DNA from: a bacterium
GTDB lineage: Bacteria; Patescibacteriota; Minisyncoccia; Phycocordibacterales; PALSA-1337
Direction: 5' to 3'
DNA length: 62,375 nucleotides
Assembly: GCA_021782175.1 (NCBI GenBank)
Contig: JAJXVL010000001.1
Span: 1 to 62,375 of the forward strand
The notes under the pieces: generated by a model
What the model was told of the DNA's origin: nothing
Seen by the model: only the letters and a program-made list of their open reading frames with translations
The model's database searches: none
Shown here: piece by piece, positions 54,563-61,537 of the stretch
How the letters are laid out: each line of letters starts with the position of its first letter
How positions within the stretch are numbered: the first letter of the stretch is position 1
Position numbers and translations under genes: made by a program

Positions 54563-54637
54563 GGCTCGAAATATAGCAGATTTTGCCAAAAAAAACGACG
54601 ACCGTGAATTGGTCGTCGTGAATAGTGAGCCCCGCCA

Positions 54638-55096
54638 TCAACGTTTGTTGGTGGCGATCTTGAAACCCTGGGCCAGCATGATCTGACAGGCACCGTTGTG
54701 ACACTCTCGGACCATGGCCAACATCAGGTGTTTGATGCCGACTTTCTCAGCCTGGCCGCGACGAGCGAATTCCTTGGCCAGAGCCAGCACCCGCTCTAGA
54801 TGCAGGTCGTGTTGACCGACGCGATGCTTTTCCGTGGAGACCAATTTGGGCAGGTCACTCTGGAGCTGGCGTTTGATCCGGTTCAGGAACTGTTCCTGAT
54901 CCTTGGGATCCAGATGGATCGGTTCGTCGGCGCCTGTGCCGTGACCCATCACGGCAATGCCGTACAAGAGGTATTCGCACCGGAAAACATCAAAGTTTTC
55001 GGCGGCAGTTTGAGCACCAACGCGGATAGCCTCAGTCGCTTTTTCCGAAAACGGCAAAACCCTCATCGTCTTACGGATTTTCTTGAAAATTGTCAT
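54638..55096 (-). CDS. Clp N-terminal (Clp_N repeat) domain-only protein
   Basis: It has two Clp_N-like repeats (CEYLLYGIAVMG... and IKHLMLAMVRE...) within 152 aa and no AAA+ module. Confidence 0.6.
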   Translation of the reverse strand: MTIFKKIRKTMRVLPFSEKATEAIRVGAQTAAENFDVFRCEYLLYGIAVMGHGTGADEPIHLDPKDQEQFLNRIKRQLQSDLPKLVSTEKHRVGQHDLHLERVLALAKEFARRGQAEKVGIKHLMLAMVRECHNGACQIMLAQGFKIATNKR

Positions 55097-55195: not shown

Positions 55196-55792
55196 TCAAA
55201 CGAACTTTTTCAAAACCTGGAAATCTTGTTTGAGCGTATCGCGCATGCCTCCGTTGTAGAGGGCGGCAGCGGGATGATAGAGCGTTACGATGGTAATCTC
55301 CCCATAGCTCGTCTGAGCCGCAAAAGTTCGGCCGTGAATGCGGCTGATTGGCTCCAGTTCGAGGTCCAAGCCAAATTTCTTCATGATGTAATTCATAGAA
55401 TGCCTTCCGAGAGTAGCGATGACTCGTGGCTGGATGATATTGATTTGCCTATCGAGAAAAGGTGCGTAGAGTTCGATTTCTTCTGGCGTGGGGTCGCGAT
55501 TCTCTGGCGGTCGATCTTTGACGATGTTGGTGATATAGACTTGCGCGCGTTCGAGGCCGATCGAATTGATCAGTTCGTCCAGGAATTTGCCCGCGGCACC
55601 GCAGAACGGTCTCGCAGTCTTGGCTTCATTCAGACCCGGCGCTTCGCCGACGAACATGATTTGGGCTTCGTGATTCCCTTCTCCGACAACTGGGAAGAAA
55701 TGATTTTCTGTGCGGTAAGTGTAGAGTGGCGATTCTTTGAAAACCAACAATTCATCGCGAATCTTCCTGAGAGCTTCGTCTCGAGTATTCAT
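55196..55792 (-). CDS. udg: Uracil-DNA glycosylase, family 4
   Basis: It has MFVGEAPGLNEAKTARPFCGAAG and a C-terminal HPAAALY motif. The start was trimmed to MNTRDEAL, downstream of a terminator hairpin. Confidence 0.85.
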   Translation of the reverse strand: MNTRDEALRKIRDELLVFKESPLYTYRTENHFFPVVGEGNHEAQIMFVGEAPGLNEAKTARPFCGAAGKFLDELINSIGLERAQVYITNIVKDRPPENRDPTPEEIELYAPFLDRQINIIQPRVIATLGRHSMNYIMKKFGLDLELEPISRIHGRTFAAQTSYGEITIVTLYHPAAALYNGGMRDTLKQDFQVLKKFV

Positions 55793-55805
55793 GACATAAT
55801 TGTAC

Positions 55806-55837
55806 AACAAAAAATGACTGGTTTTGGAACCAGTCAT
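55806..55837 (-). terminator. Rho-independent terminator (perfect 10-bp stem ATGACTGGTT/AACCAGTCAT, then TTTTTTGTTG on the minus strand)
   Basis: The sequence was read directly, downstream of the 55853 ORF on the minus strand. Confidence 0.75.
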
Positions 55838-55852
55838 GTTGAGAAAATTATC

Positions 55853-56368
55853 TCAGGAAGCCTGTTCGATCAGCTTGAGAGCGGCGGACCAATCTTCCGG
55901 CAGGTAAAAATGCTTGATACCCAAGGATCTGGTGATCTCGTGTTCCCACTTCGCTCCAAACGATGAACGCCAGTCTGGAATGAAGTGCATGGCTTCTACC
56001 AAGCCAGAAGTGAAAATAGGCTCATAGAAATCATACAGAATGGGCATGCAATATCCCTTTTTGTCGGAGTTTTGGAGGCGCCATTCATTGTGGAGGCGAA
56101 CCAGTTGTTCCTCAAAAGGAATTTGACTGAAGACATTATAGCCATTTTGGGCCAAGGCCTCGATGGTGGCTTGGAAAACAGCCAGATTGCCCTTGAGAGT
56201 ACCAGTGCCACCGGTGGTGATCGGACCAGAAACCATATGCACCTTACCACGCGGATTGTGTTTGATCACATCTAGGGCTACCTGACAAAGATCTCCAAAG
56301 CTGCGTACCTTAGCCAATTTCGCCCTGTCTTTTTTTGTCCAGAACTTGAAGTGAATTTGGTTGTGCAT
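55853..56368 (-). CDS. DUF4406 / nucleoside 2-deoxyribosyltransferase-like small protein (tentative)
   Basis: 171 aa with an early VSGPITTGG loop resembling the SGPM/SGPI motif of that fold. The assignment is by memory only. Confidence 0.4.
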   Translation of the reverse strand: MHNQIHFKFWTKKDRAKLAKVRSFGDLCQVALDVIKHNPRGKVHMVSGPITTGGTGTLKGNLAVFQATIEALAQNGYNVFSQIPFEEQLVRLHNEWRLQNSDKKGYCMPILYDFYEPIFTSGLVEAMHFIPDWRSSFGAKWEHEITRSLGIKHFYLPEDWSAALKLIEQAS

Positions 56369-56421
56369 ACTGCGGACAATTTAGCACCAATAGCTTTTTA
56401 GGCAAGCACCCGCAATAGAGC

Positions 56422-57273
56422 CTACTTCGCCTGCTCGACAATCAACTGAGCTTCTGTGAGCACCGCTTCGGCTGCCGCGGCTTTGACGCCAATCTCCCCC
56501 AGAATTTGCGGAGTACCAATGAGATCAACGCAAGCCAAGACATCACGACCGATCAAGTCTTTCTTCTGATCATGAGACAAACTAGTCAGACAAGTGATCG
56601 GGTGCAAGCCGTTCTGCTCAATCACCTGGTGCAAGCCACCTTGCGCTGGGTAATTCCAACCAATCATTTTCAGACCGACGCACTCGGCGTATTTCACAGC
56701 CGCTTCCGTGAACTTGGTGTTTGTTGCCAACCAACGGCCGTTCTTCGAGAGTTGACGCTTCTCACCACCAAAGTCAAAAGTTTGTTCGGCCAAGTCGTCG
56801 AAGCGCGCTTTGACATAGAGGGCTACTTTCAAATCAGACTTCAAGCCCAATTCATTGTGGAATTTGGCTTCGGCCATGGCCAGCTCCGCACCTTTCCAAG
56901 CCACCACGTCTACTTCATGCTCCACGCAGGTGCCTTTCAGAACCTGATCAGTGACAGTTTCATAGCCCCACAAGCGGAAAATTCGGGCCATGAACTTCTC
57001 AAAAGGAAACCCATCCGGACCAAGTTCAAACAAAGCTCTCCTGATCGAATACTTTACCGCGGTTGGATGGTGGTTCTGGCGCAAGAGTGCAAAAGCGCGG
57101 CTGTAAATATCTGTTGTGGGCATGCCATCCCACATCTCCCCGTTGATTTCTTTGACGATCTGATTGATAACCGGCTCGTTGGCTCCGACTTTTTTCAGCG
57201 AGGTGACAAGCTTATGCTCATCAAAAAGTTCTTTTTGGCCGTTTGATTTGGTGACAGAAAAAGTAGGGTTCAT
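56422..57273 (-). CDS. ATP-cone domain fused to a PD-(D/E)xK (Mrr-like) restriction-endonuclease-fold domain
   Basis: The N-terminus VTKSNGQKELFDEHKLVTSLKKVG... is ATP-cone-like. It is followed by GFPFEKF...EVDVVAW...AMAEAKF, which gives a D...ExK pattern. Confidence 0.65.
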   Translation of the reverse strand: MNPTFSVTKSNGQKELFDEHKLVTSLKKVGANEPVINQIVKEINGEMWDGMPTTDIYSRAFALLRQNHHPTAVKYSIRRALFELGPDGFPFEKFMARIFRLWGYETVTDQVLKGTCVEHEVDVVAWKGAELAMAEAKFHNELGLKSDLKVALYVKARFDDLAEQTFDFGGEKRQLSKNGRWLATNTKFTEAAVKYAECVGLKMIGWNYPAQGGLHQVIEQNGLHPITCLTSLSHDQKKDLIGRDVLACVDLIGTPQILGEIGVKAAAAEAVLTEAQLIVEQAK

Positions 57274-57282
57274 TGGTGATTA

Positions 57283-58401
57283 TTATACGATAATTCCGCC
57301 ACCGAGGCACTCTTCACCTCGATACAAGACCAGGGATTGTCCGGGGGTGATAGTGTTCTGAGCTTTGGCGAAAGTTATCGTAGCGGTATCAGCAGTGGCA
57401 GTTGTGACTGTTCCCTGAAACAGAGCTTCGCGATAGCGGCCGCGCATTTCCACGATTTGTGACAGGGGCGCGTGGCCGGAGAGCCAGTTGGTACGCCGAA
57501 GAGTTGCCTGGGTGGTAGCGTTATCCGTCAAATCATTTGTTTTACGATTGGCTACGGTGATAGTGTTCAGCTTCATATTTTTGCCAACAACGAAATAAGG
57601 CTCATCGTGAGGGGTTTTCCTGGTGATTTCAAAGCCGTGTCTTTCGCCGATCGTGAAAAAAGCCGCTCCGGGATGCATGCCGATATTTTGTCCAGAAACA
57701 TCCAAGACTTGGCCCGGTTTGGTTTCGATGTAGTGGCCCAAGAACTCCTTGAGATCAACATGGCCGATGAAACAGAGACCCTGACTGTCCTTCTTGGTGG
57801 CATTGGGTAGTTTGAATTTCTCTGCCAGGCGGCGTACTTCTGGCTTGGTCAGATGGCCGACTGGGAACATGATATGGGCCAAGTCTGCTTGGTTGAGTGT
57901 CCAGAGGAAATAAGATTGGTCTTTGTTACTGTCAGCACCTTTGCTGAGATGATAGGTGGTTTGACCGGCTTTTGTTTGGTCGCTCGTTACCTGAGCATAA
58001 TGGCCAGTGGCCACAAAATCAGCTCCTTGTTCTGCAGCATAACGCCAAAAAGCGCCGAACTTCACTTCGCGATTGCACATCACATCAGGATTGGGGGTTC
58101 GTCCGGCAGCGTATTCAGAGAGCATGTAGTCTATGACACCGGTTTTGTATTCCTGAGAAAGATCCAGGGTTTCGAAAGGAATCCGGAGATGAGCCGCTAC
58201 TCTCATGGCTGATAAACGTTCCTCCTTCCAAGAACATTCGAGCCAATCCGGCTGCCAAACCTTGATGAAGATGCCGGTGACATCATAGCCAGCCTGCTTG
58301 AGTAGGGCGGCGGAAACAGCGCTGTCTACCCCACCCGACAGGCCGACAAAAATTTTCCTTTTAGGAATTTTGTTAATTTTTATATCAGATTTTTTTCCCA
58401 T
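57283..58401 (-). CDS. mnmA: tRNA-specific 2-thiouridylase MnmA
   Basis: It has the PP-loop GLSGGVDSAV and MnmA-like sequence throughout. Confidence 0.92.
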   Translation of the reverse strand: MGKKSDIKINKIPKRKIFVGLSGGVDSAVSAALLKQAGYDVTGIFIKVWQPDWLECSWKEERLSAMRVAAHLRIPFETLDLSQEYKTGVIDYMLSEYAAGRTPNPDVMCNREVKFGAFWRYAAEQGADFVATGHYAQVTSDQTKAGQTTYHLSKGADSNKDQSYFLWTLNQADLAHIMFPVGHLTKPEVRRLAEKFKLPNATKKDSQGLCFIGHVDLKEFLGHYIETKPGQVLDVSGQNIGMHPGAAFFTIGERHGFEITRKTPHDEPYFVVGKNMKLNTITVANRKTNDLTDNATTQATLRRTNWLSGHAPLSQIVEMRGRYREALFQGTVTTATADTATITFAKAQNTITPGQSLVLYRGEECLGGGIIV

Positions 58402-58402
58402 A

Positions 58403-59305
58403 TTATTTTTCTGAAAACAACCCCTCTGATTGCCATTTCAAAATTAAATTGCGAACAAAATTGAGAGAATGCAACGCTTCTATTTTATCTAGCACTATGT
58501 TTTCAGATAATAGATCTACACGTTGTCTATGTTTAATAAATTCTATCCTGTATTCATCAAGAAATTGAGATGTGCTTAAAGCTTGTCCGAGTTGAAGAAA
58601 TGATTTTGAAACATCCGCAGCAAGTTTTTTATAGGTTTCCTCGTTATAATTGTTAGAATAGTCGTCTCTGATTATTTTACTAAAATTACTCTCGCCGCCA
58701 CCTCCCCAATAACCAGTAAGTTTTCCTGCTAATTCTACAATGCGGTGCCCATCAAATACTGCTGTTTGTAAGGCTTCGTCAGATCTTCCTACACAGTCGT
58801 TATACCGCGTCTCATTAAATGCTGATTCGGCTTCCTTAACCTTCACTCTTATATCATTTATATCTATAAGATCTGCTAGAGATAAAGTGTCGTAACACGT
58901 TTCAAATTCCTTTGAAAAAACTTCTTTTAGGAAATCTTCAGTGTACCCTTGATATTTAATAAGAGTTTCAAATGAAGGCACATCACCGCGGTGATGAACA
59001 TTATTCCTCTCTTCGTGTAAATTTCCAATTTTTGAACTTGTCGGTAATTTTTCCAAGTTTTTTAATAAATCGTAGTATTCCCAATGTTTCTTTGGGTTAT
59101 TATTTTTATCTTTTGGTAATGATATTTTTTTATAATCTACAAATATTTTCATTACCATTTCCACTGAATTATCAAAACAGTGTATCGCTAATAGTCTATC
59201 GATAGTAGAGCTTGTATTTTTTGCAAAATCAGACCCACGCATGAACATAGCCTTAACAATAACAAGAGAATGTATGACCCTTATTTTTTCCTGCTCTGTA
59301 CTCAT
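58403..59305 (-). CDS. AT-rich hypothetical protein with a possible HEPN-like R-x4-H motif (ERNNVHHRG)
   Basis: 300 aa, helical and Lys/Asn/Glu-rich. It lies 1 nt from the mnmA start, and its ATG overlaps the mltG stop (ATGA). Confidence 0.45.
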   Translation of the reverse strand: MSTEQEKIRVIHSLVIVKAMFMRGSDFAKNTSSTIDRLLAIHCFDNSVEMVMKIFVDYKKISLPKDKNNNPKKHWEYYDLLKNLEKLPTSSKIGNLHEERNNVHHRGDVPSFETLIKYQGYTEDFLKEVFSKEFETCYDTLSLADLIDINDIRVKVKEAESAFNETRYNDCVGRSDEALQTAVFDGHRIVELAGKLTGYWGGGGESNFSKIIRDDYSNNYNEETYKKLAADVSKSFLQLGQALSTSQFLDEYRIEFIKHRQRVDLLSENIVLDKIEALHSLNFVRNLILKWQSEGLFSEK

Positions 59306-60258
59306 AAGTTGAGATACTTGGCCTTGTTGGCATTATGTCCTTCCAGTGTCGTAGCGTAGTGCATGACACCGTCTTTGCCAGAAAGGTAGAACCAGTATGG
59401 CGTATTGGTCGGCTGGACAGTGTCTAGGATAGCGTCCAAGCCAGGATTATCAATCGGCGTGGGTGGCAAGCCTGTATGCAGATAGAGGTTGTATGGTGAA
59501 GCGGTCTTGAGATCATCCAAGGTCAATTGATCCAGTGGTTTGTTCAGGAAGTAAGCAAAAGGCGGATCAACCTGCAGAGCCATGCCGCTTGTGAGACGGT
59601 GCCAGAGAATGCCCGCCACAATCCTGCGGTCAGTACTCGAAGTAGCCTCTTTCTCAACGATGGAAGCCATCTTGATCACTTGGGAAAGTGGCTGGTCGAA
59701 GTGTCCGATCACATCGTTGATTGTTGCTAGTTTGTTTTGGAAAATAGTCTGCATGTCAGTAACCACCTTGTTGGGTGTGACGTTGGTTGGCCAGAAATAA
59801 GTATCCGGGAAGAGGTACCCCTCATCTTTCTTGGCTATCGTGATGAAAGTATCACTATCAAATCCGGGTATGCTTTTCTTGATTAGTTTGGCGATATCAA
59901 CAGAACTACTTCCTTCGGGAATAGTTACCTTGACCAAAGGAAACCCTTCTAGGCCATGTGTGGTTCGATAGGCAATGCGCAAAACCGACTGTGGACTATC
60001 GAAAAGATACTGTCCTGATTTGACCCCTCGGGTACCGCCATCGATAAGTACTGCGTATATTTTGTACATCCAGGTTGATTTGATCAAACCTTTTGATTCG
60101 AGTAAGTCGGCCGTCTGGCTCAGAGTAGTACCGGGAGCAATGTTTACAACAGTCTGGCCTGGAAAATTGAGCGGCGAAATAGAGGCCCCAACCACACCAA
60201 AAATAGCGGCCACAACCGCCAAACCAGCGAGGATGGTGATGAACAGTCGTTTATCCAT
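59302..60258 (-). CDS. mltG: Endolytic murein transglycosylase MltG (YceG-like)
   Basis: It has an N-terminal TM helix, a YceG-like core (ASIVEKEA...GILWHRL) and a PYNLYLHTGLPPTPI motif. Confidence 0.88.
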   Translation of the reverse strand: MDKRLFITILAGLAVVAAIFGVVGASISPLNFPGQTVVNIAPGTTLSQTADLLESKGLIKSTWMYKIYAVLIDGGTRGVKSGQYLFDSPQSVLRIAYRTTHGLEGFPLVKVTIPEGSSSVDIAKLIKKSIPGFDSDTFITIAKKDEGYLFPDTYFWPTNVTPNKVVTDMQTIFQNKLATINDVIGHFDQPLSQVIKMASIVEKEATSSTDRRIVAGILWHRLTSGMALQVDPPFAYFLNKPLDQLTLDDLKTASPYNLYLHTGLPPTPIDNPGLDAILDTVQPTNTPYWFYLSGKDGVMHYATTLEGHNANKAKYLNL

Positions 60259-60259
60259 A

Positions 60260-61537
60260 TTAGATTGGCAGATTGCTCGGCGCTTCGGCCTTCTTGGACG
60301 GGACGCGTTCCAAGCCAGGCGTAGCCGCGACTGTACCCGGGAAGTGGTAAATAGTCGCCAATTCCTCAGTATTCAGAACGACTACTTTGGAATTCTGGAA
60401 TGGCGGATAAAAAGCGGAACGCCGACGGTAGGCCTTGAGAGCAGCCTTGGAAATATAGTTACGGCGCATATTGCGGTAGTCCTGCCAGGGATAATCAGAA
60501 ACTTTGGAGGTCCATTTGCCGCTCGGTTTGAAGCCATTCAAGTGTTCCGTGTTGAACTGTTTCAGGCAGGAAATAATACCGCCGATACCAAAAGGTGTAT
60601 CGAAAGATTCTTTCTTGGCGATATACATGGTTCGGATACAAACATCAAAAGGCATTTTGGTCACACTGCGCTCCAGAGCTTTGACTACCTCTTGTTCTCC
60701 ATGAGAGATCGTGGGTAGTTTGGCAAAGCCGGTATCCGGATTGACTTCCCCGGCTACCTTGGTTTTCTTGTCACGAATGAGGATTTTGTTTACCTCTTCC
60801 TGGGCCAAATCTTTCCAGCGGTCAGTTTTGCCCCAGAGGGTGCCTTTCTTGTGCTGCTCTTTCTTGTGAGCACGCACGATGAATTGGAACCAAGCTTGTT
60901 CATTGGGTCTCAGACTGCCCAACCATTCGATGGTATGAGTGAGCGGATCAATCTTGAATTCTTCCTTGGGGTCCTTGTCCAGACCGTAATCAATATAGGT
61001 CTTGATGGGATAAGGGTCAGGCTTGGTGCATTCGAACTCCGCGGCCCAAACTTTCCAGATCTTGGGGTCGAATTGGACTTCCTTGGCATAGTCGGTACGT
61101 TCGGTGATTTCGATGCCGGGATATTGAGCATATAGTGCCGACATCAAGTTCTGTTTGCGTCGATCCTCAGTCCAGATCATGAATTTCACTTGACCTTCGA
61201 TGGAGATGATTTCCAGGGAATACCACGGTCTGGTATCACCTTTCCAGTATTGGCCGTACCAATTGCCATCAGCGGTGTTGTGGATAGCCTGCAAGACAGT
61301 TTCCATGGCCAACGGCGATTTCCAGGTGTCCTTGGGCAAACGCAACTCCAGCAAAGTATATTTCAACTTCAAAAAATTCTTGAGTCTCACATAACGCACC
61401 CAAATATCCCAAAAGAGCCTGGCCATGATGACGGCTAGGGCAATTGGCGACAAGAGGATAGTGTAATGCAAAACCGTCGGCCACAAATCCGTATGGAAAA
61501 GATTGCCAAGCAGACTCGCAATATCGGCGTAGGTCAT
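60260..61537 (-). CDS. Membrane-anchored conserved hypothetical protein (Trp/Lys-rich, C-terminal LNTEELATIYHFP motif)
   Basis: A 425-aa ORF with one or two N-terminal TM helices. I cannot name a family with confidence. Confidence 0.5.
   Translation of the reverse strand: MTYADIASLLGNLFHTDLWPTVLHYTILLSPIALAVIMARLFWDIWVRYVRLKNFLKLKYTLLELRLPKDTWKSPLAMETVLQAIHNTADGNWYGQYWKGDTRPWYSLEIISIEGQVKFMIWTEDRRKQNLMSALYAQYPGIEITERTDYAKEVQFDPKIWKVWAAEFECTKPDPYPIKTYIDYGLDKDPKEEFKIDPLTHTIEWLGSLRPNEQAWFQFIVRAHKKEQHKKGTLWGKTDRWKDLAQEEVNKILIRDKKTKVAGEVNPDTGFAKLPTISHGEQEVVKALERSVTKMPFDVCIRTMYIAKKESFDTPFGIGGIISCLKQFNTEHLNGFKPSGKWTSKVSDYPWQDYRNMRRNYISKAALKAYRRRSAFYPPFQNSKVVVLNTEELATIYHFPGTVAATPGLERVPSKKAEAPSNLPI

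What the first reader, a model, noticed from the sequence alone, without database searches (positions are those of the whole stretch)
55853..57273. ATP-cone::PD-(D/E)xK nuclease co-transcribed with a DUF4406-like gene
The 283-aa protein joins an N-terminal ATP-cone to an Mrr-like restriction-endonuclease fold (GFPFEKF, EVDVVAW, AMAEAKF). The ATP-cone is the nucleotide-sensing module of NrdR and ribonucleotide reductases.

The gene is followed, 54 nt downstream, by a 171-aa nucleoside-deoxyribosyltransferase/DUF4406-like gene and then by a strong terminator (55806-55837). The pair therefore closes the long mltG-mnmA operon.

A nuclease gated by (d)NTP levels, next to a putative nucleotide-modifying enzyme, is the kind of pairing seen in nucleotide-sensing or nucleotide-depleting anti-phage systems. 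That functional reading is speculative.
Basis: partly seen in the sequence, partly recalled or inferred. Interest (0 to 1): 0.6.

Follow-up and report, generated by a model that had tools for sequence, protein, structure and literature searches.

The report
ATP-cone-gated housekeeping nuclease, optional NDT-like neighbour
The gene really fuses an ATP/dATP-sensing ATP-cone to an intact AF1548/Mrr-type nuclease, but it is a single-copy, vertically inherited housekeeping gene of a group of tiny-genome (Patescibacteria) bacteria, its DUF4406-like neighbour is only an occasional passenger, and nothing points to phage defence.

Summary
Observation confirmed. The catalytic residues E92, D122, E135 and K137 are invariant in 40 diverse relatives. 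The 171-aa neighbour is a DUF4406/nucleoside-deoxyribosyltransferase-like protein, on weak but convergent evidence. A stable hairpin plus U-run follows it.

The defence interpretation is not supported.
- The nuclease is single-copy in 110 of 151 genomes of its order.
- It sits in a conserved p425-mltG-mnmA-nuclease-(variable slot)-UDG4-alaS block.
- It co-diverges with mnmA and mltG and is as conserved as mnmA.
- It has no significant PADLOC match.
- The DUF4406-like gene follows it in only 5 of 80 related loci.
- Outside the order its neighbours are unrelated housekeeping genes.

Most likely it is a stand-alone DNA-maintenance nuclease whose activity is switched by adenine nucleotides through the ATP-cone. 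Substrate and gating are inferred. Two ideas were tested and rejected: that it fills a missing AP-endonuclease role or a missing Holliday-junction-resolvase role. The family is catalogued but biochemically untested, and this copy is an ordinary member.

The parts
56422..57273 (-). Gene for the 283-aa ATP-cone / AF1548-type PD-(D/E)xK nuclease
   Evidence: ORF. Pfam ATP-cone above its cut-off. PDB 1Y88 at E 7e-33. More than 3634 homologues, mostly about 280 aa with the same architecture.
57043..57258 (-). ATP-cone domain (residues 6-77)
   Evidence: PF03477 at 28.4 bits against 25.8. The six-frame search gives 31.1 bits at 57040-57258. Foldseek matches NrdR/RNR ATP-cones with probability 1.0. 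K9, G12, F17 and K21 are invariant or nearly so in the family.
56662..57012 (-). PD-(D/E)xK nuclease core (residues about 88-204). Putative catalytic residues are E92, D122, E135 and K137.
   Evidence: Aligned to 1Y88. E92, D122, E135 and K137 are invariant in 40 diverse relatives. The D-13-E-x-K spacing is the same as that of the catalytic residues predicted for AF1548 (PMC1821046). 1Y88 is grouped with Mrr_cat/COG1787 (PMC3424549).
56425..56640 (-). AF1548-like C-terminal helical domain (residues about 212-283). It is presumed to bind nucleic acid.
   Evidence: PF22357 is matched by 28 of 29 family members, best E 9e-11. A profile of this region matches 1Y88 residues 130-196 at E 7e-11. The model shows five helices here. 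A helix-hairpin-helix identity was not confirmed.
56369..56421 (-). 53-nt spacer between the nuclease and the DUF4406-like gene
   Evidence: Coordinates. No promoter-like site was found here on the minus strand.
55853..56368 (-). Gene for the 171-aa DUF4406 / nucleoside-2-deoxyribosyltransferase-like protein
   Evidence: Pfam DUF4406 at 24.0 bits against 22, with 8 of 13 homologues matching. Motifs VSGPIxTGG and SxGxxWE (E142) are invariant. The fold matches phage NDT/DUF4406 models. There is a weak match to phrog_355, annotated as NDT.
55806..55837 (-). Terminator-like hairpin (stem-loop 55814-55837) followed by a U-run
   Evidence: Pattern scan. Folding energy -14.9 kcal/mol, z = -4.1. The sequence is unique in the genome, so it is not one of the genome's palindromic repeat modules.
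55196..55792 (-). Family-4 uracil-DNA glycosylase. It is the usual downstream neighbour of the nuclease in relatives. The likely start is ATG 55792.
   Evidence: Pfam UDG at E 3e-33 and TIGR00758 at 202 bits. It lies downstream of the nuclease in 49 of 80 loci and directly adjacent in 17. The start was inferred from relatives' alignments.
57283..58401 (-). mnmA (tRNA 2-thiouridylase). It is the conserved upstream neighbour and ends 9 nt before the nuclease start.
   Evidence: Pfam tRNA_Me_trans at E 5e-74. It lies upstream in 67 of 80 loci.

Best explanation
The 283-aa protein is a stand-alone, vertically inherited housekeeping nuclease. An N-terminal ATP-cone binds ATP and/or dATP. By changing the oligomeric state or domain arrangement, as it does in ribonucleotide reductases and NrdR, it switches an AF1548/Mrr-type Mg2+-dependent PD-(D/E)xK endonuclease on or off. 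The putative active site is E92, D122, E135 and K137. The AF1548-like C-terminal helical domain helps to hold the nucleic acid.

Its most likely job is DNA maintenance tuned to the cell's adenine-nucleotide or dNTP status: repair, or controlled turnover of damaged or surplus DNA. It does not look like a restriction or defence enzyme.

The DUF4406-like gene is not an obligate partner. It is an old, frequently lost passenger of a variable slot in a 'DNA/nucleotide hygiene' block. It is probably a nucleoside or nucleotide N-glycosyl-transferring or -hydrolysing enzyme of the NDT superfamily, acting on the nucleotide pool.

Shown here: domain identities, invariant catalytic residues, fold, single-copy vertical inheritance, and gene context. 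Inferred: nucleotide binding, gating, DNA as substrate, and the biological process.
For: Domains and fold.
- ATP-cone above the Pfam cut-off, with NrdR/RNR-like fold.
- Homology to 1Y88 at E 7e-33.
- Confident model: pLDDT 95.4, pTM 0.89.

Active enzyme.
- E92, D122, E135 and K137 are invariant, and ATP-cone residues K9, G12, F17 and K21 are conserved, in 40 relatives at 34-75% identity.

Housekeeping behaviour.
- Exactly one copy in 110 of 151 genomes of the order, all 0.4-1.2 Mb.
- Conserved p425-mltG-mnmA-nuclease-UDG4-alaS synteny in 80 species.
- Mantel correlation of distances: r = 0.61 against mnmA and 0.65 against mltG (p <= 5e-4). Mean pairwise identity is 0.55, against 0.57 for mnmA and 0.45 for mltG.

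Context.
- Within the order, the slot downstream of the nuclease holds UDG4, a Cas4/RecB-like PDDEXK_1 nuclease (16 loci), an MGMT-type DNA-binding protein (7), an HD/YfbR-like 5'-deoxynucleotidase (4), a MazG-like protein (2-3) and the DUF4406-like gene (5).
- In one genome that lacks the nuclease, a DEDD/DnaQ-like exonuclease occupies the same slot.

No sign of defence.
- No significant PADLOC match.
- No defence genes were noticed among the ORFs of 18 distant loci, compared with one another and with the window's genes but not scanned against PADLOC; the recurrent ones there look like housekeeping genes (typA, PPIase, enolase) by eye.

ATP-cone mechanism.
- In RNR and NrdR, ATP and dATP control activity through oligomerisation (PMC12051234).

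DUF4406-like gene.
- 13 of 27 genomes that encode it have the nuclease within 4 kb upstream.
- The two proteins co-diverge (Mantel r = 0.51, p = 6e-4). This fits co-inheritance with repeated loss.
Against: - No member of the family has been assayed. Nucleotide binding, nuclease activity and substrate are all inferred.
- R10 of the canonical ATP-cone phosphate-binding pair is not conserved (the comparison with E. coli NrdA numbering is from memory).
- The repair or hygiene theme of the neighbours is confined to one order. Outside it, none of mnmA, UDG4 or alaS lies nearby, so the association may be synteny by descent rather than functional coupling.
- The gene is absent from 27% of the order's genomes, so it is dispensable.
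- It does not fill an obvious gap. Xth-type AP endonuclease is present in 44 of 46 genomes and RuvC in 46 of 46, regardless of the nuclease.
- An RNA substrate is not excluded.
Confidence: 0.62

Rival explanations
1. Nucleotide-salvage nuclease. When the ATP-cone senses low ATP or dATP, the enzyme degrades imported or surplus DNA or RNA to feed the nucleotide pool of an organism that cannot make nucleotides de novo. The DUF4406/NDT-like, MazG-like and HD/YfbR-like neighbours process the products.
For: - The ATP-cone is the classic sensor of the dNTP pool.
- Optional neighbours include enzymes of nucleotide metabolism: DUF4406/NDT-like, MazG-like and YfbR-like 5'-deoxynucleotidase.
- The genomes are tiny, 0.4-1.2 Mb.
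- Earlier notes of this scan reached a similar reading. They are leads only.
Against: - The nucleotide-metabolism neighbours are rare: 2-5 of 80 loci each.
- The commonest neighbours are DNA-repair proteins (UDG4, PDDEXK_1, MGMT-type).
- Outside the order no such neighbours recur.
- Whether these genomes lack de novo nucleotide synthesis was not tested here.
Confidence: 0.2
2. One reading: a nucleotide-sensing anti-phage nuclease working with the DUF4406-like enzyme. It would be triggered when phage infection perturbs (d)NTP levels.
For: - Sensor-plus-PD-(D/E)xK-nuclease fusions are a known defence design. Weak fold matches to the nuclease domains of Can2, Cdn1 and VC1899 were found.
- NDT-like and DUF4406 proteins are common in phages.
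- An AT-rich foreign gene lies two genes upstream in the same operon.
Against: - No significant PADLOC match for either protein.
- Single-copy, vertically inherited and as conserved as mnmA.
- Embedded in a core gene block in 80 species and among what look like housekeeping genes in 18 distant genomes.
- The DUF4406-like gene is adjacent in only 5 of 80 loci.
- The matches to Can2 and Cdn1 have TM 0.2-0.3 and cover only the shared nuclease fold.
Confidence: 0.06
3. RNA-directed nuclease. The enzyme would take part in tRNA or rRNA processing or turnover, regulated by ATP. This would explain the tight linkage to mnmA and alaS.
For: - mnmA is the most conserved neighbour (67 of 80 loci) and ends 9 nt before the nuclease start.
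- alaS lies in the same block (52 of 80).
- Some PD-(D/E)xK enzymes cut RNA; tRNA-intron splicing is listed among the superfamily's roles (PMC3424549, abstract).
Against: - The mnmA and alaS linkage disappears outside the order, as expected for inherited gene order.
- The Mrr_cat/AF1548 group is otherwise a group of DNA enzymes.
- Slot neighbours are mostly DNA-repair proteins.
Confidence: 0.08
4. Non-cleaving, NrdR-like regulator. The nuclease fold would serve only as a DNA-binding module, and the ATP-cone would control binding to DNA.
For: - NrdR uses the same ATP-cone to gate DNA binding.
- No NrdR-type second ATP-cone protein was found in this genome, which is 84% complete. The only other ATP-cone lies in a 791-aa RNR-sized ORF.
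Against: All four catalytic residues of the PD-(D/E)xK site are invariant in 40 relatives at 34-75% identity. That is not expected for a purely DNA-binding derivative.
Confidence: 0.04

Closest known systems
AF1548 of Archaeoglobus fulgidus (PDB 1Y88; Pfam Mrr_cat region plus PF22357 AF1548-like_C; grouped with COG1787/COG1715 in the PD-(D/E)xK survey PMC3424549)
   Same: It has the same nuclease core and the same C-terminal helical domain: E 7e-33 over residues 94-279, and Foldseek E 6e-14 with TM 0.81. The D-13-E-x-K catalytic spacing is the same.
   Different: The crystallised AF1548 chain (199 aa) has only about 22 residues before the nuclease core and no ATP-cone. It is a structural-genomics protein with no assayed function.
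ATP-cone of ribonucleotide reductases and of the repressor NrdR
   Same: The N-terminal 80 residues belong to the same Pfam family and have the same fold. K9, E15 and K21 align with nucleotide-contacting positions; the numbering is recalled from E. coli NrdA and was not tested. The likely mode of action is the same: ATP or dATP binding changes the oligomeric state.
   Different: Here the output domain is a nuclease, not a reductase or a zinc-ribbon DNA-binding domain. R10 is not conserved. No binding data exist.
Mrr, a type IV methyl-dependent restriction endonuclease (Pfam Mrr_cat)
   Same: It belongs to the same branch of the PD-(D/E)xK superfamily.
   Different: Mrr_cat scores below its cut-off (16.7 against 21 bits). 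Mrr's N-terminal DNA-recognition domain is replaced by an ATP-cone; that Mrr has such a domain is recalled from memory. The distribution is vertical and the context is housekeeping, not a mobile restriction gene.
Can2/Card1 and Cdn1: CARF-sensor plus PD-(D/E)xK nuclease effectors of type III CRISPR and related systems
   Same: The design principle is shared: a small-molecule (nucleotide) sensor domain fused to a PD-(D/E)xK nuclease. Weak fold matches were found (E 2e-3 to 2e-2).
   Different: There is no CARF domain, the TM scores are only 0.2-0.3, no CRISPR or cyclase genes lie nearby, and the ligand would be ATP or dATP rather than a cyclic oligoadenylate.
Nucleoside 2-deoxyribosyltransferase / DNPH1 (Rcl) superfamily, including Pfam DUF4406 (for the 171-aa neighbour)
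   Same: Pfam DUF4406 scores above its cut-off. The fold matches phage NDT/DUF4406 models. The protein has a glycine-rich VSGPIxTGG loop and an invariant glutamate in SxGxxWE, resembling the family's catalytic-Glu motif; the motif comparison is from memory.
   Different: There is no significant match to any solved NDT or DNPH1 structure. It carries an extra N-terminal helical segment of about 40 residues. Only 13 to about 27 relatives were found, all in Patescibacteria-type genomes.

Membership tests
ATP-cone (PF03477) | Profile match above the curated cut-off | tested here: met
   28.4 bits against 25.8. The six-frame genome search gives 31.1 bits.
ATP-cone (PF03477) | Fold of a beta-hairpin plus a four-helix bundle, superposable on RNR and NrdR cones | tested here: met
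   Foldseek probability 1.0 to NrdR (7p37, 9gex) and RNR chains, with rmsd 1.8-2.6 A over about 81 residues.
ATP-cone (PF03477) | Conserved nucleotide-contacting residues (K9, R10, E15, K21 in E. coli NrdA numbering, recalled from memory) | tested here: inconclusive
   K9 and K21 are nearly invariant and E15 is the consensus residue. Position 10 is variable (S in this protein).
ATP-cone (PF03477) | Binds ATP and/or dATP and changes the activity or oligomeric state | not testable with these tools
   This needs ITC or DSF and SEC-MALS on purified protein.
AF1548-type / Mrr_cat branch of PD-(D/E)xK nucleases | Sequence homology to AF1548 over both the nuclease core and the C-terminal domain | tested here: met
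   1Y88 at E 7e-33 over residues 94-279. PF22357 is matched by 28 of 29 family members.
AF1548-type / Mrr_cat branch of PD-(D/E)xK nucleases | Intact E...D...E-x-K catalytic constellation | tested here: met
   E92, D122, E135 and K137 are invariant in 40 sequences.
AF1548-type / Mrr_cat branch of PD-(D/E)xK nucleases | Pfam Mrr_cat match above its gathering score | tested here: not met
   16.7 bits against 21 for this protein. Many close relatives do carry a precomputed PF04471 assignment.
AF1548-type / Mrr_cat branch of PD-(D/E)xK nucleases | Metal-dependent phosphodiester cleavage | not testable with these tools
   No member of the family has been assayed. No paper on it was found.
Anti-phage defence system | Match to a known or candidate defence protein model | tested here: not met
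   PADLOC gives only a chance-level ZorC match to the nuclease (E 0.022, 11.7 bits) and nothing for the DUF4406-like protein.
Anti-phage defence system | Location in variable defence islands or mobile elements, with patchy, horizontally transferred distribution | tested here: not met
   It sits in a conserved core block in 80 species. It is single-copy in 110 of 151 genomes of the order. It co-diverges with mnmA and mltG. In 18 distant loci the recurrent neighbours look like housekeeping genes.
Anti-phage defence system | Conserved linkage of the component genes (nuclease plus DUF4406-like) | tested here: not met
   5 of 80 nuclease loci carry the DUF4406-like gene. Conversely, 13 of 27 DUF4406-like loci carry the nuclease.
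Anti-phage defence system | Protection against phage when expressed | not testable with these tools
   This needs phage-challenge assays in laboratory hosts.
DUF4406 / nucleoside 2-deoxyribosyltransferase-like superfamily (171-aa protein) | Profile match above the curated cut-off | tested here: met
   24.0 bits against 22. 8 of 13 homologues match, best E 2.8e-5.
DUF4406 / nucleoside 2-deoxyribosyltransferase-like superfamily (171-aa protein) | NDT-like fold | tested here: inconclusive
   BFVD phage NDT, DUF4406 and DUF1937 models match with probability 1.0 but E about 2e-3 and TM 0.42-0.71. No PDB match has E below 0.25.
DUF4406 / nucleoside 2-deoxyribosyltransferase-like superfamily (171-aa protein) | Catalytic glutamate in a conserved S/D-x-G-x-x-x-E motif (recalled from NDT and DNPH1) | tested here: inconclusive
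   S136, G138, W141 and E142 are invariant. This stretch gives the weak match to phrog_355, annotated as NDT. Equivalence to the catalytic Glu was not shown by a structural alignment.

The most novel reading that the evidence does not exclude
The ATP-cone/AF1548 nuclease would be the first nuclease whose cutting is allosterically gated by the ATP/dATP ratio.

In these bacteria it would act as a non-canonical DNA-repair or DNA-turnover endonuclease that licenses cutting only when the nucleotide pool can support resynthesis. The sampled genomes of the order lack both known mismatch-repair initiators: MutS in 1 of 46 and NucS in 1 of 46.

The optional DUF4406/NDT-like and MazG-like neighbours would clean up the released or abnormal nucleotides.
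Probability: 0.15. Interest if true: 0.7.

Novelty: new member of a known kind. Interest (0 to 1): 0.3.

Why it matters
The ATP-cone is known to control only ribonucleotide reductases and their repressor NrdR. If it also gates a nuclease, that would extend dNTP-pool sensing to DNA cutting, in a family with more than a thousand 50%-identity clusters and a solved but unexplained structure (1Y88).

For this window the practical message is negative. The gene pair is not a new defence system and should not be annotated as restriction or defence. The nuclease is a conserved housekeeping gene, and the DUF4406-like gene is a facultative passenger of a variable slot.

The family remains a reasonable target for a simple biochemical study.

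Tried and rejected
1. Missing AP endonuclease downstream of UDG4: rejected. An Xth-type Exo_endo_phos gene of about 260 aa is present in 44 of 46 genomes of the order (23 of 23 with the nuclease, 21 of 23 without).

2. Missing Holliday-junction resolvase: rejected. RuvC is present in 46 of 46 genomes.

3. Complementarity with mismatch repair: none found. MutS (1 of 46) and NucS (1 of 46 above the cut-off) are absent whether or not the nuclease is present. This neither supports nor excludes a repair role.

4. Phylum-wide survey with PF22357: uninformative. The 56-position model missed even the window's own gene in the six-frame search.

5. C-terminal domain as helix-hairpin-helix: not confirmed. 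Profile searches gave only 1Y88, plus non-significant matches to the RAD51 N-terminal domain (E 0.75) and SAM_SMF.

6. Solved-structure relatives of the DUF4406-like protein: none by sequence or by fold.

7. The hairpin as one of the genome's palindromic repeat modules (lead from note e1-3705356): rejected. The sequence is unique in the genome.

8. Functional linkage to mnmA, UDG4 and alaS beyond the order: rejected. None of them lies within 5 kb in 18 class- or phylum-level relatives.

9. Literature: the full-text searches tried (ATP-cone together with restriction endonuclease, endonuclease, nuclease or Mrr; AF1548; COG1787) found no paper on an ATP-cone nuclease.

Full report
**What is in the sequence**

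On the minus strand the window carries a tightly packed gene row (Pfam and NCBIfam):
- a 425-aa ORF (60260-61537)
- mltG/YceG (59302-60258)
- an AT-rich 300-aa ORF (58403-59305)
- mnmA (57283-58401)
- the 283-aa ORF of the finding (56422-57273)
- a 171-aa ORF (55853-56368)
- a family-4 uracil-DNA glycosylase, UDG4 (55196-55837 as the longest ORF)
- a 152-aa ORF
- alaS

**The nuclease**

Pfam finds an ATP-cone at residues 6-77 above its cut-off (28.4 bits against 25.8). Mrr_cat and AF1548-like_C score below their cut-offs. The decisive hit is PDB 1Y88 (AF1548 of Archaeoglobus fulgidus), at E 7e-33 over residues 94-279.

An AlphaFold model built on 40 relatives is confident (pLDDT 95.4, pTM 0.89). 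It matches 1Y88 at E 6e-14 and TM 0.81. Its N-terminal domain matches NrdR and RNR ATP-cones with probability 1.0.

In an alignment of 40 relatives at 34-75% identity, E92, D122, E135 and K137 are invariant. The D-13-E-x-K spacing equals that of the catalytic residues predicted for AF1548 (PMC1821046). The PD-(D/E)xK survey places 1Y88 with Mrr_cat, COG1715 and COG1787 (PMC3424549).

The last 70 residues or so are the AF1548-like_C domain, matched by 28 of 29 family members. I could not confirm that this domain is a helix-hairpin-helix module.

So the protein has three domains, not two, and it looks catalytically competent.

**The neighbour**

The 171-aa protein passes the DUF4406 cut-off narrowly (24.0 bits against 22), and 8 of its 13 detectable homologues also match. 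Its invariant motifs are VSGPIxTGG and SxGxxWE.

No solved structure matches it by sequence or by fold. Its model (pLDDT 88.5) consistently matches phage N-deoxyribosyltransferase, DUF4406 and DUF1937 models (probability 1.0, E about 2e-3). A weak match to phrog_355, annotated as NDT, covers the SxGxxWE region. 'NDT/DUF4406-like' is therefore reasonable but not firm.

**The hairpin**

The sequence at 55814-55837 forms a 10-bp perfect stem followed by U6. It folds at -14.9 kcal/mol, z = -4.1. Relatives' UDG4 proteins align from residues 13-21 of the longest ORF. UDG4 therefore most likely starts at ATG 55792, which makes the hairpin intergenic.

The hairpin sequence is unique in the genome. UDG4, the 152-aa ORF and alaS follow on the same strand.

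**Distribution and context**

The window belongs to a 546-kb Patescibacteria-type assembly that is 84% complete. Source names for close homologues are Taylorbacteria, Paceibacteria and Minisyncoccia.

The nuclease is present exactly once in 110 of 151 sampled genomes of its order. Across the whole class it is present in only 18 of 201. The family has 1145 clusters at 50% identity with E <= 1e-3 (434 with E <= 1e-30); the 150 best listed are almost all about 280 aa long.

In 80 related genome loci, the neighbours within 5 kb are mnmA (67 loci), mltG (60), the 425-aa ORF (57), alaS (52) and UDG4 (49). The DUF4406-like gene is there in only 5. UDG4 abuts the nuclease directly in 17 loci.

The space between the nuclease and UDG4 or alaS is a variable slot. 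Across the loci it holds:
- a Cas4/RecB-like PDDEXK_1 nuclease (16 loci)
- an M3 peptidase, named by eye and not confirmed by a family search (7)
- an MGMT-type DNA-binding protein (7)
- the DUF4406-like gene (4-5)
- an HD/YfbR-like 5'-deoxynucleotidase (4)
- PCMT (3)
- MgtC (3)
- a MazG-like protein (2-3)

Pairwise distances of the nuclease correlate with those of mnmA (r = 0.61) and mltG (r = 0.65, p <= 5e-4). Its mean pairwise identity (0.55) equals that of mnmA (0.57) and exceeds that of mltG (0.45). This is the signature of a vertically inherited gene under strong constraint.

PADLOC gives no significant match to either protein.

In 18 relatives from other orders and classes, none of mnmA, UDG4, alaS or mltG is nearby. 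The few recurrent neighbours look like unrelated housekeeping genes (typA, a PPIase and enolase, named by eye). The nuclease is therefore a stand-alone gene, and the repair-flavoured neighbourhood is a feature of one order.

**The DUF4406 link seen from the other side**

Of 27 genomes that encode a DUF4406-like relative, 13 have the nuclease within 4 kb upstream on the same strand, often directly adjacent. Several others have the gene in the same block next to PDDEXK_1, MGMT, MazG-like or UDG4 genes. More distant relatives sit in unrelated contexts.

Distances of the two proteins correlate (Mantel r = 0.51, p = 6e-4). The simplest reading is an old arrangement that was inherited with the block and lost many times, not an obligate two-gene system.

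**Function tests by phyletic pattern**

I compared 23 genomes of the order that have the nuclease with 23 that lack it.
- An Xth-type AP endonuclease is present in 44 of 46.
- RuvC is present in 46 of 46.
- MutS is present in 1 of 46, and NucS in 1 of 46 above its cut-off.

So the nuclease does not replace an AP endonuclease or a junction resolvase. The order lacks both known mismatch-repair initiators whether or not the nuclease is present.

Two genomes lack the nuclease but keep the block. One has MgtC in the slot. The other has a DEDD/DnaQ-like exonuclease, by motif, translationally coupled to mnmA at exactly the nuclease's position. This is suggestive, but it is a single case.

**Mechanism proposed**

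In RNRs and NrdR, the ATP-cone translates ATP or dATP occupancy into changes of oligomeric state that switch activity or DNA binding (PMC12051234). Here the same module precedes an intact PD-(D/E)xK site and a helical domain shared with AF1548.

The best-supported model is a nuclease whose cutting is licensed or blocked by adenine nucleotides, serving DNA maintenance.

Domain identity, residue conservation, fold, inheritance and context are shown. Ligand binding, gating, substrate and the biological process are inferred. Salvage-type degradation, an RNA substrate, a non-cleaving regulator and defence are listed as rivals with their odds.

**Relation to earlier notes of this scan**

Many earlier notes describe the same family and reach the same housekeeping reading. 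I treated them as leads.

**Verdict**

This gene is an ordinary member of a catalogued but biochemically untested family. The DUF4406-like pairing is facultative.

Noticed in passing
window 58403-59305 (-): A 300-aa ORF with 32-38% GC lies among neighbours of about 50% GC. It is wedged between mltG (4-nt overlap) and mnmA (1-nt gap). It has no match in Pfam, NCBIfam, PADLOC or PHROGs and no homologue in any of the 80 related loci. It looks like a lineage-specific foreign insertion into the operon. An earlier first-reader note calls it HEPN-like.
   Followed up: partly
L121 5148-5876 (+) (genome G270, same order): In a relative that lacks the ATP-cone nuclease, a 242-aa DEDD/DnaQ-like exonuclease (identified by motifs only) occupies exactly the slot between mnmA and UDG4. 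Its start overlaps the mnmA stop. This may be an in-situ displacement of one nuclease by another (n = 1).
   Followed up: partly
46 genomes of the window's order: MutS (MutS_V domain) was found in 1 of 46 and NucS in 1 of 46 (above its cut-off) near-complete genomes. RuvC, Xth and UDG are near-universal. The order appears to lack both known mismatch-repair initiators.
   Followed up: partly
Slot downstream of the nuclease in L036, L042, L043, L045, L046, L048 and others (16 of 80 loci): A Cas4/RecB-like PDDEXK_1 protein of about 270 aa, with N- and C-terminal cysteine pairs, is the commonest occupant of the variable slot between the ATP-cone nuclease and UDG4. An MGMT-type DNA-binding protein lies in the same slot in a partly overlapping set of loci.
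   Followed up: partly
window 54638-55096 (-): A 152-aa ORF lies between UDG4 and alaS. It has no Pfam or NCBIfam match and no homologue in the 80 related loci. It is followed by a second terminator-like hairpin at 54595-54619 (9-bp stem, 6 GC pairs, T-run) just upstream of alaS.
   Followed up: no
L014 2590-2967 and L058 6091-6477; also L082, L097, L098: A MazG-like gene of about 125 aa sits immediately upstream of the DUF4406-like gene in several relatives. The two may form a small nucleotide-sanitising unit. The window has the DUF4406-like gene without the MazG-like gene.
   Followed up: partly
window 60260-61537 (-): The 425-aa ORF upstream of mltG has no Pfam or PADLOC match, yet it is conserved at 37-73% identity in 57 of 80 related loci, always in the same position.
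   Followed up: no
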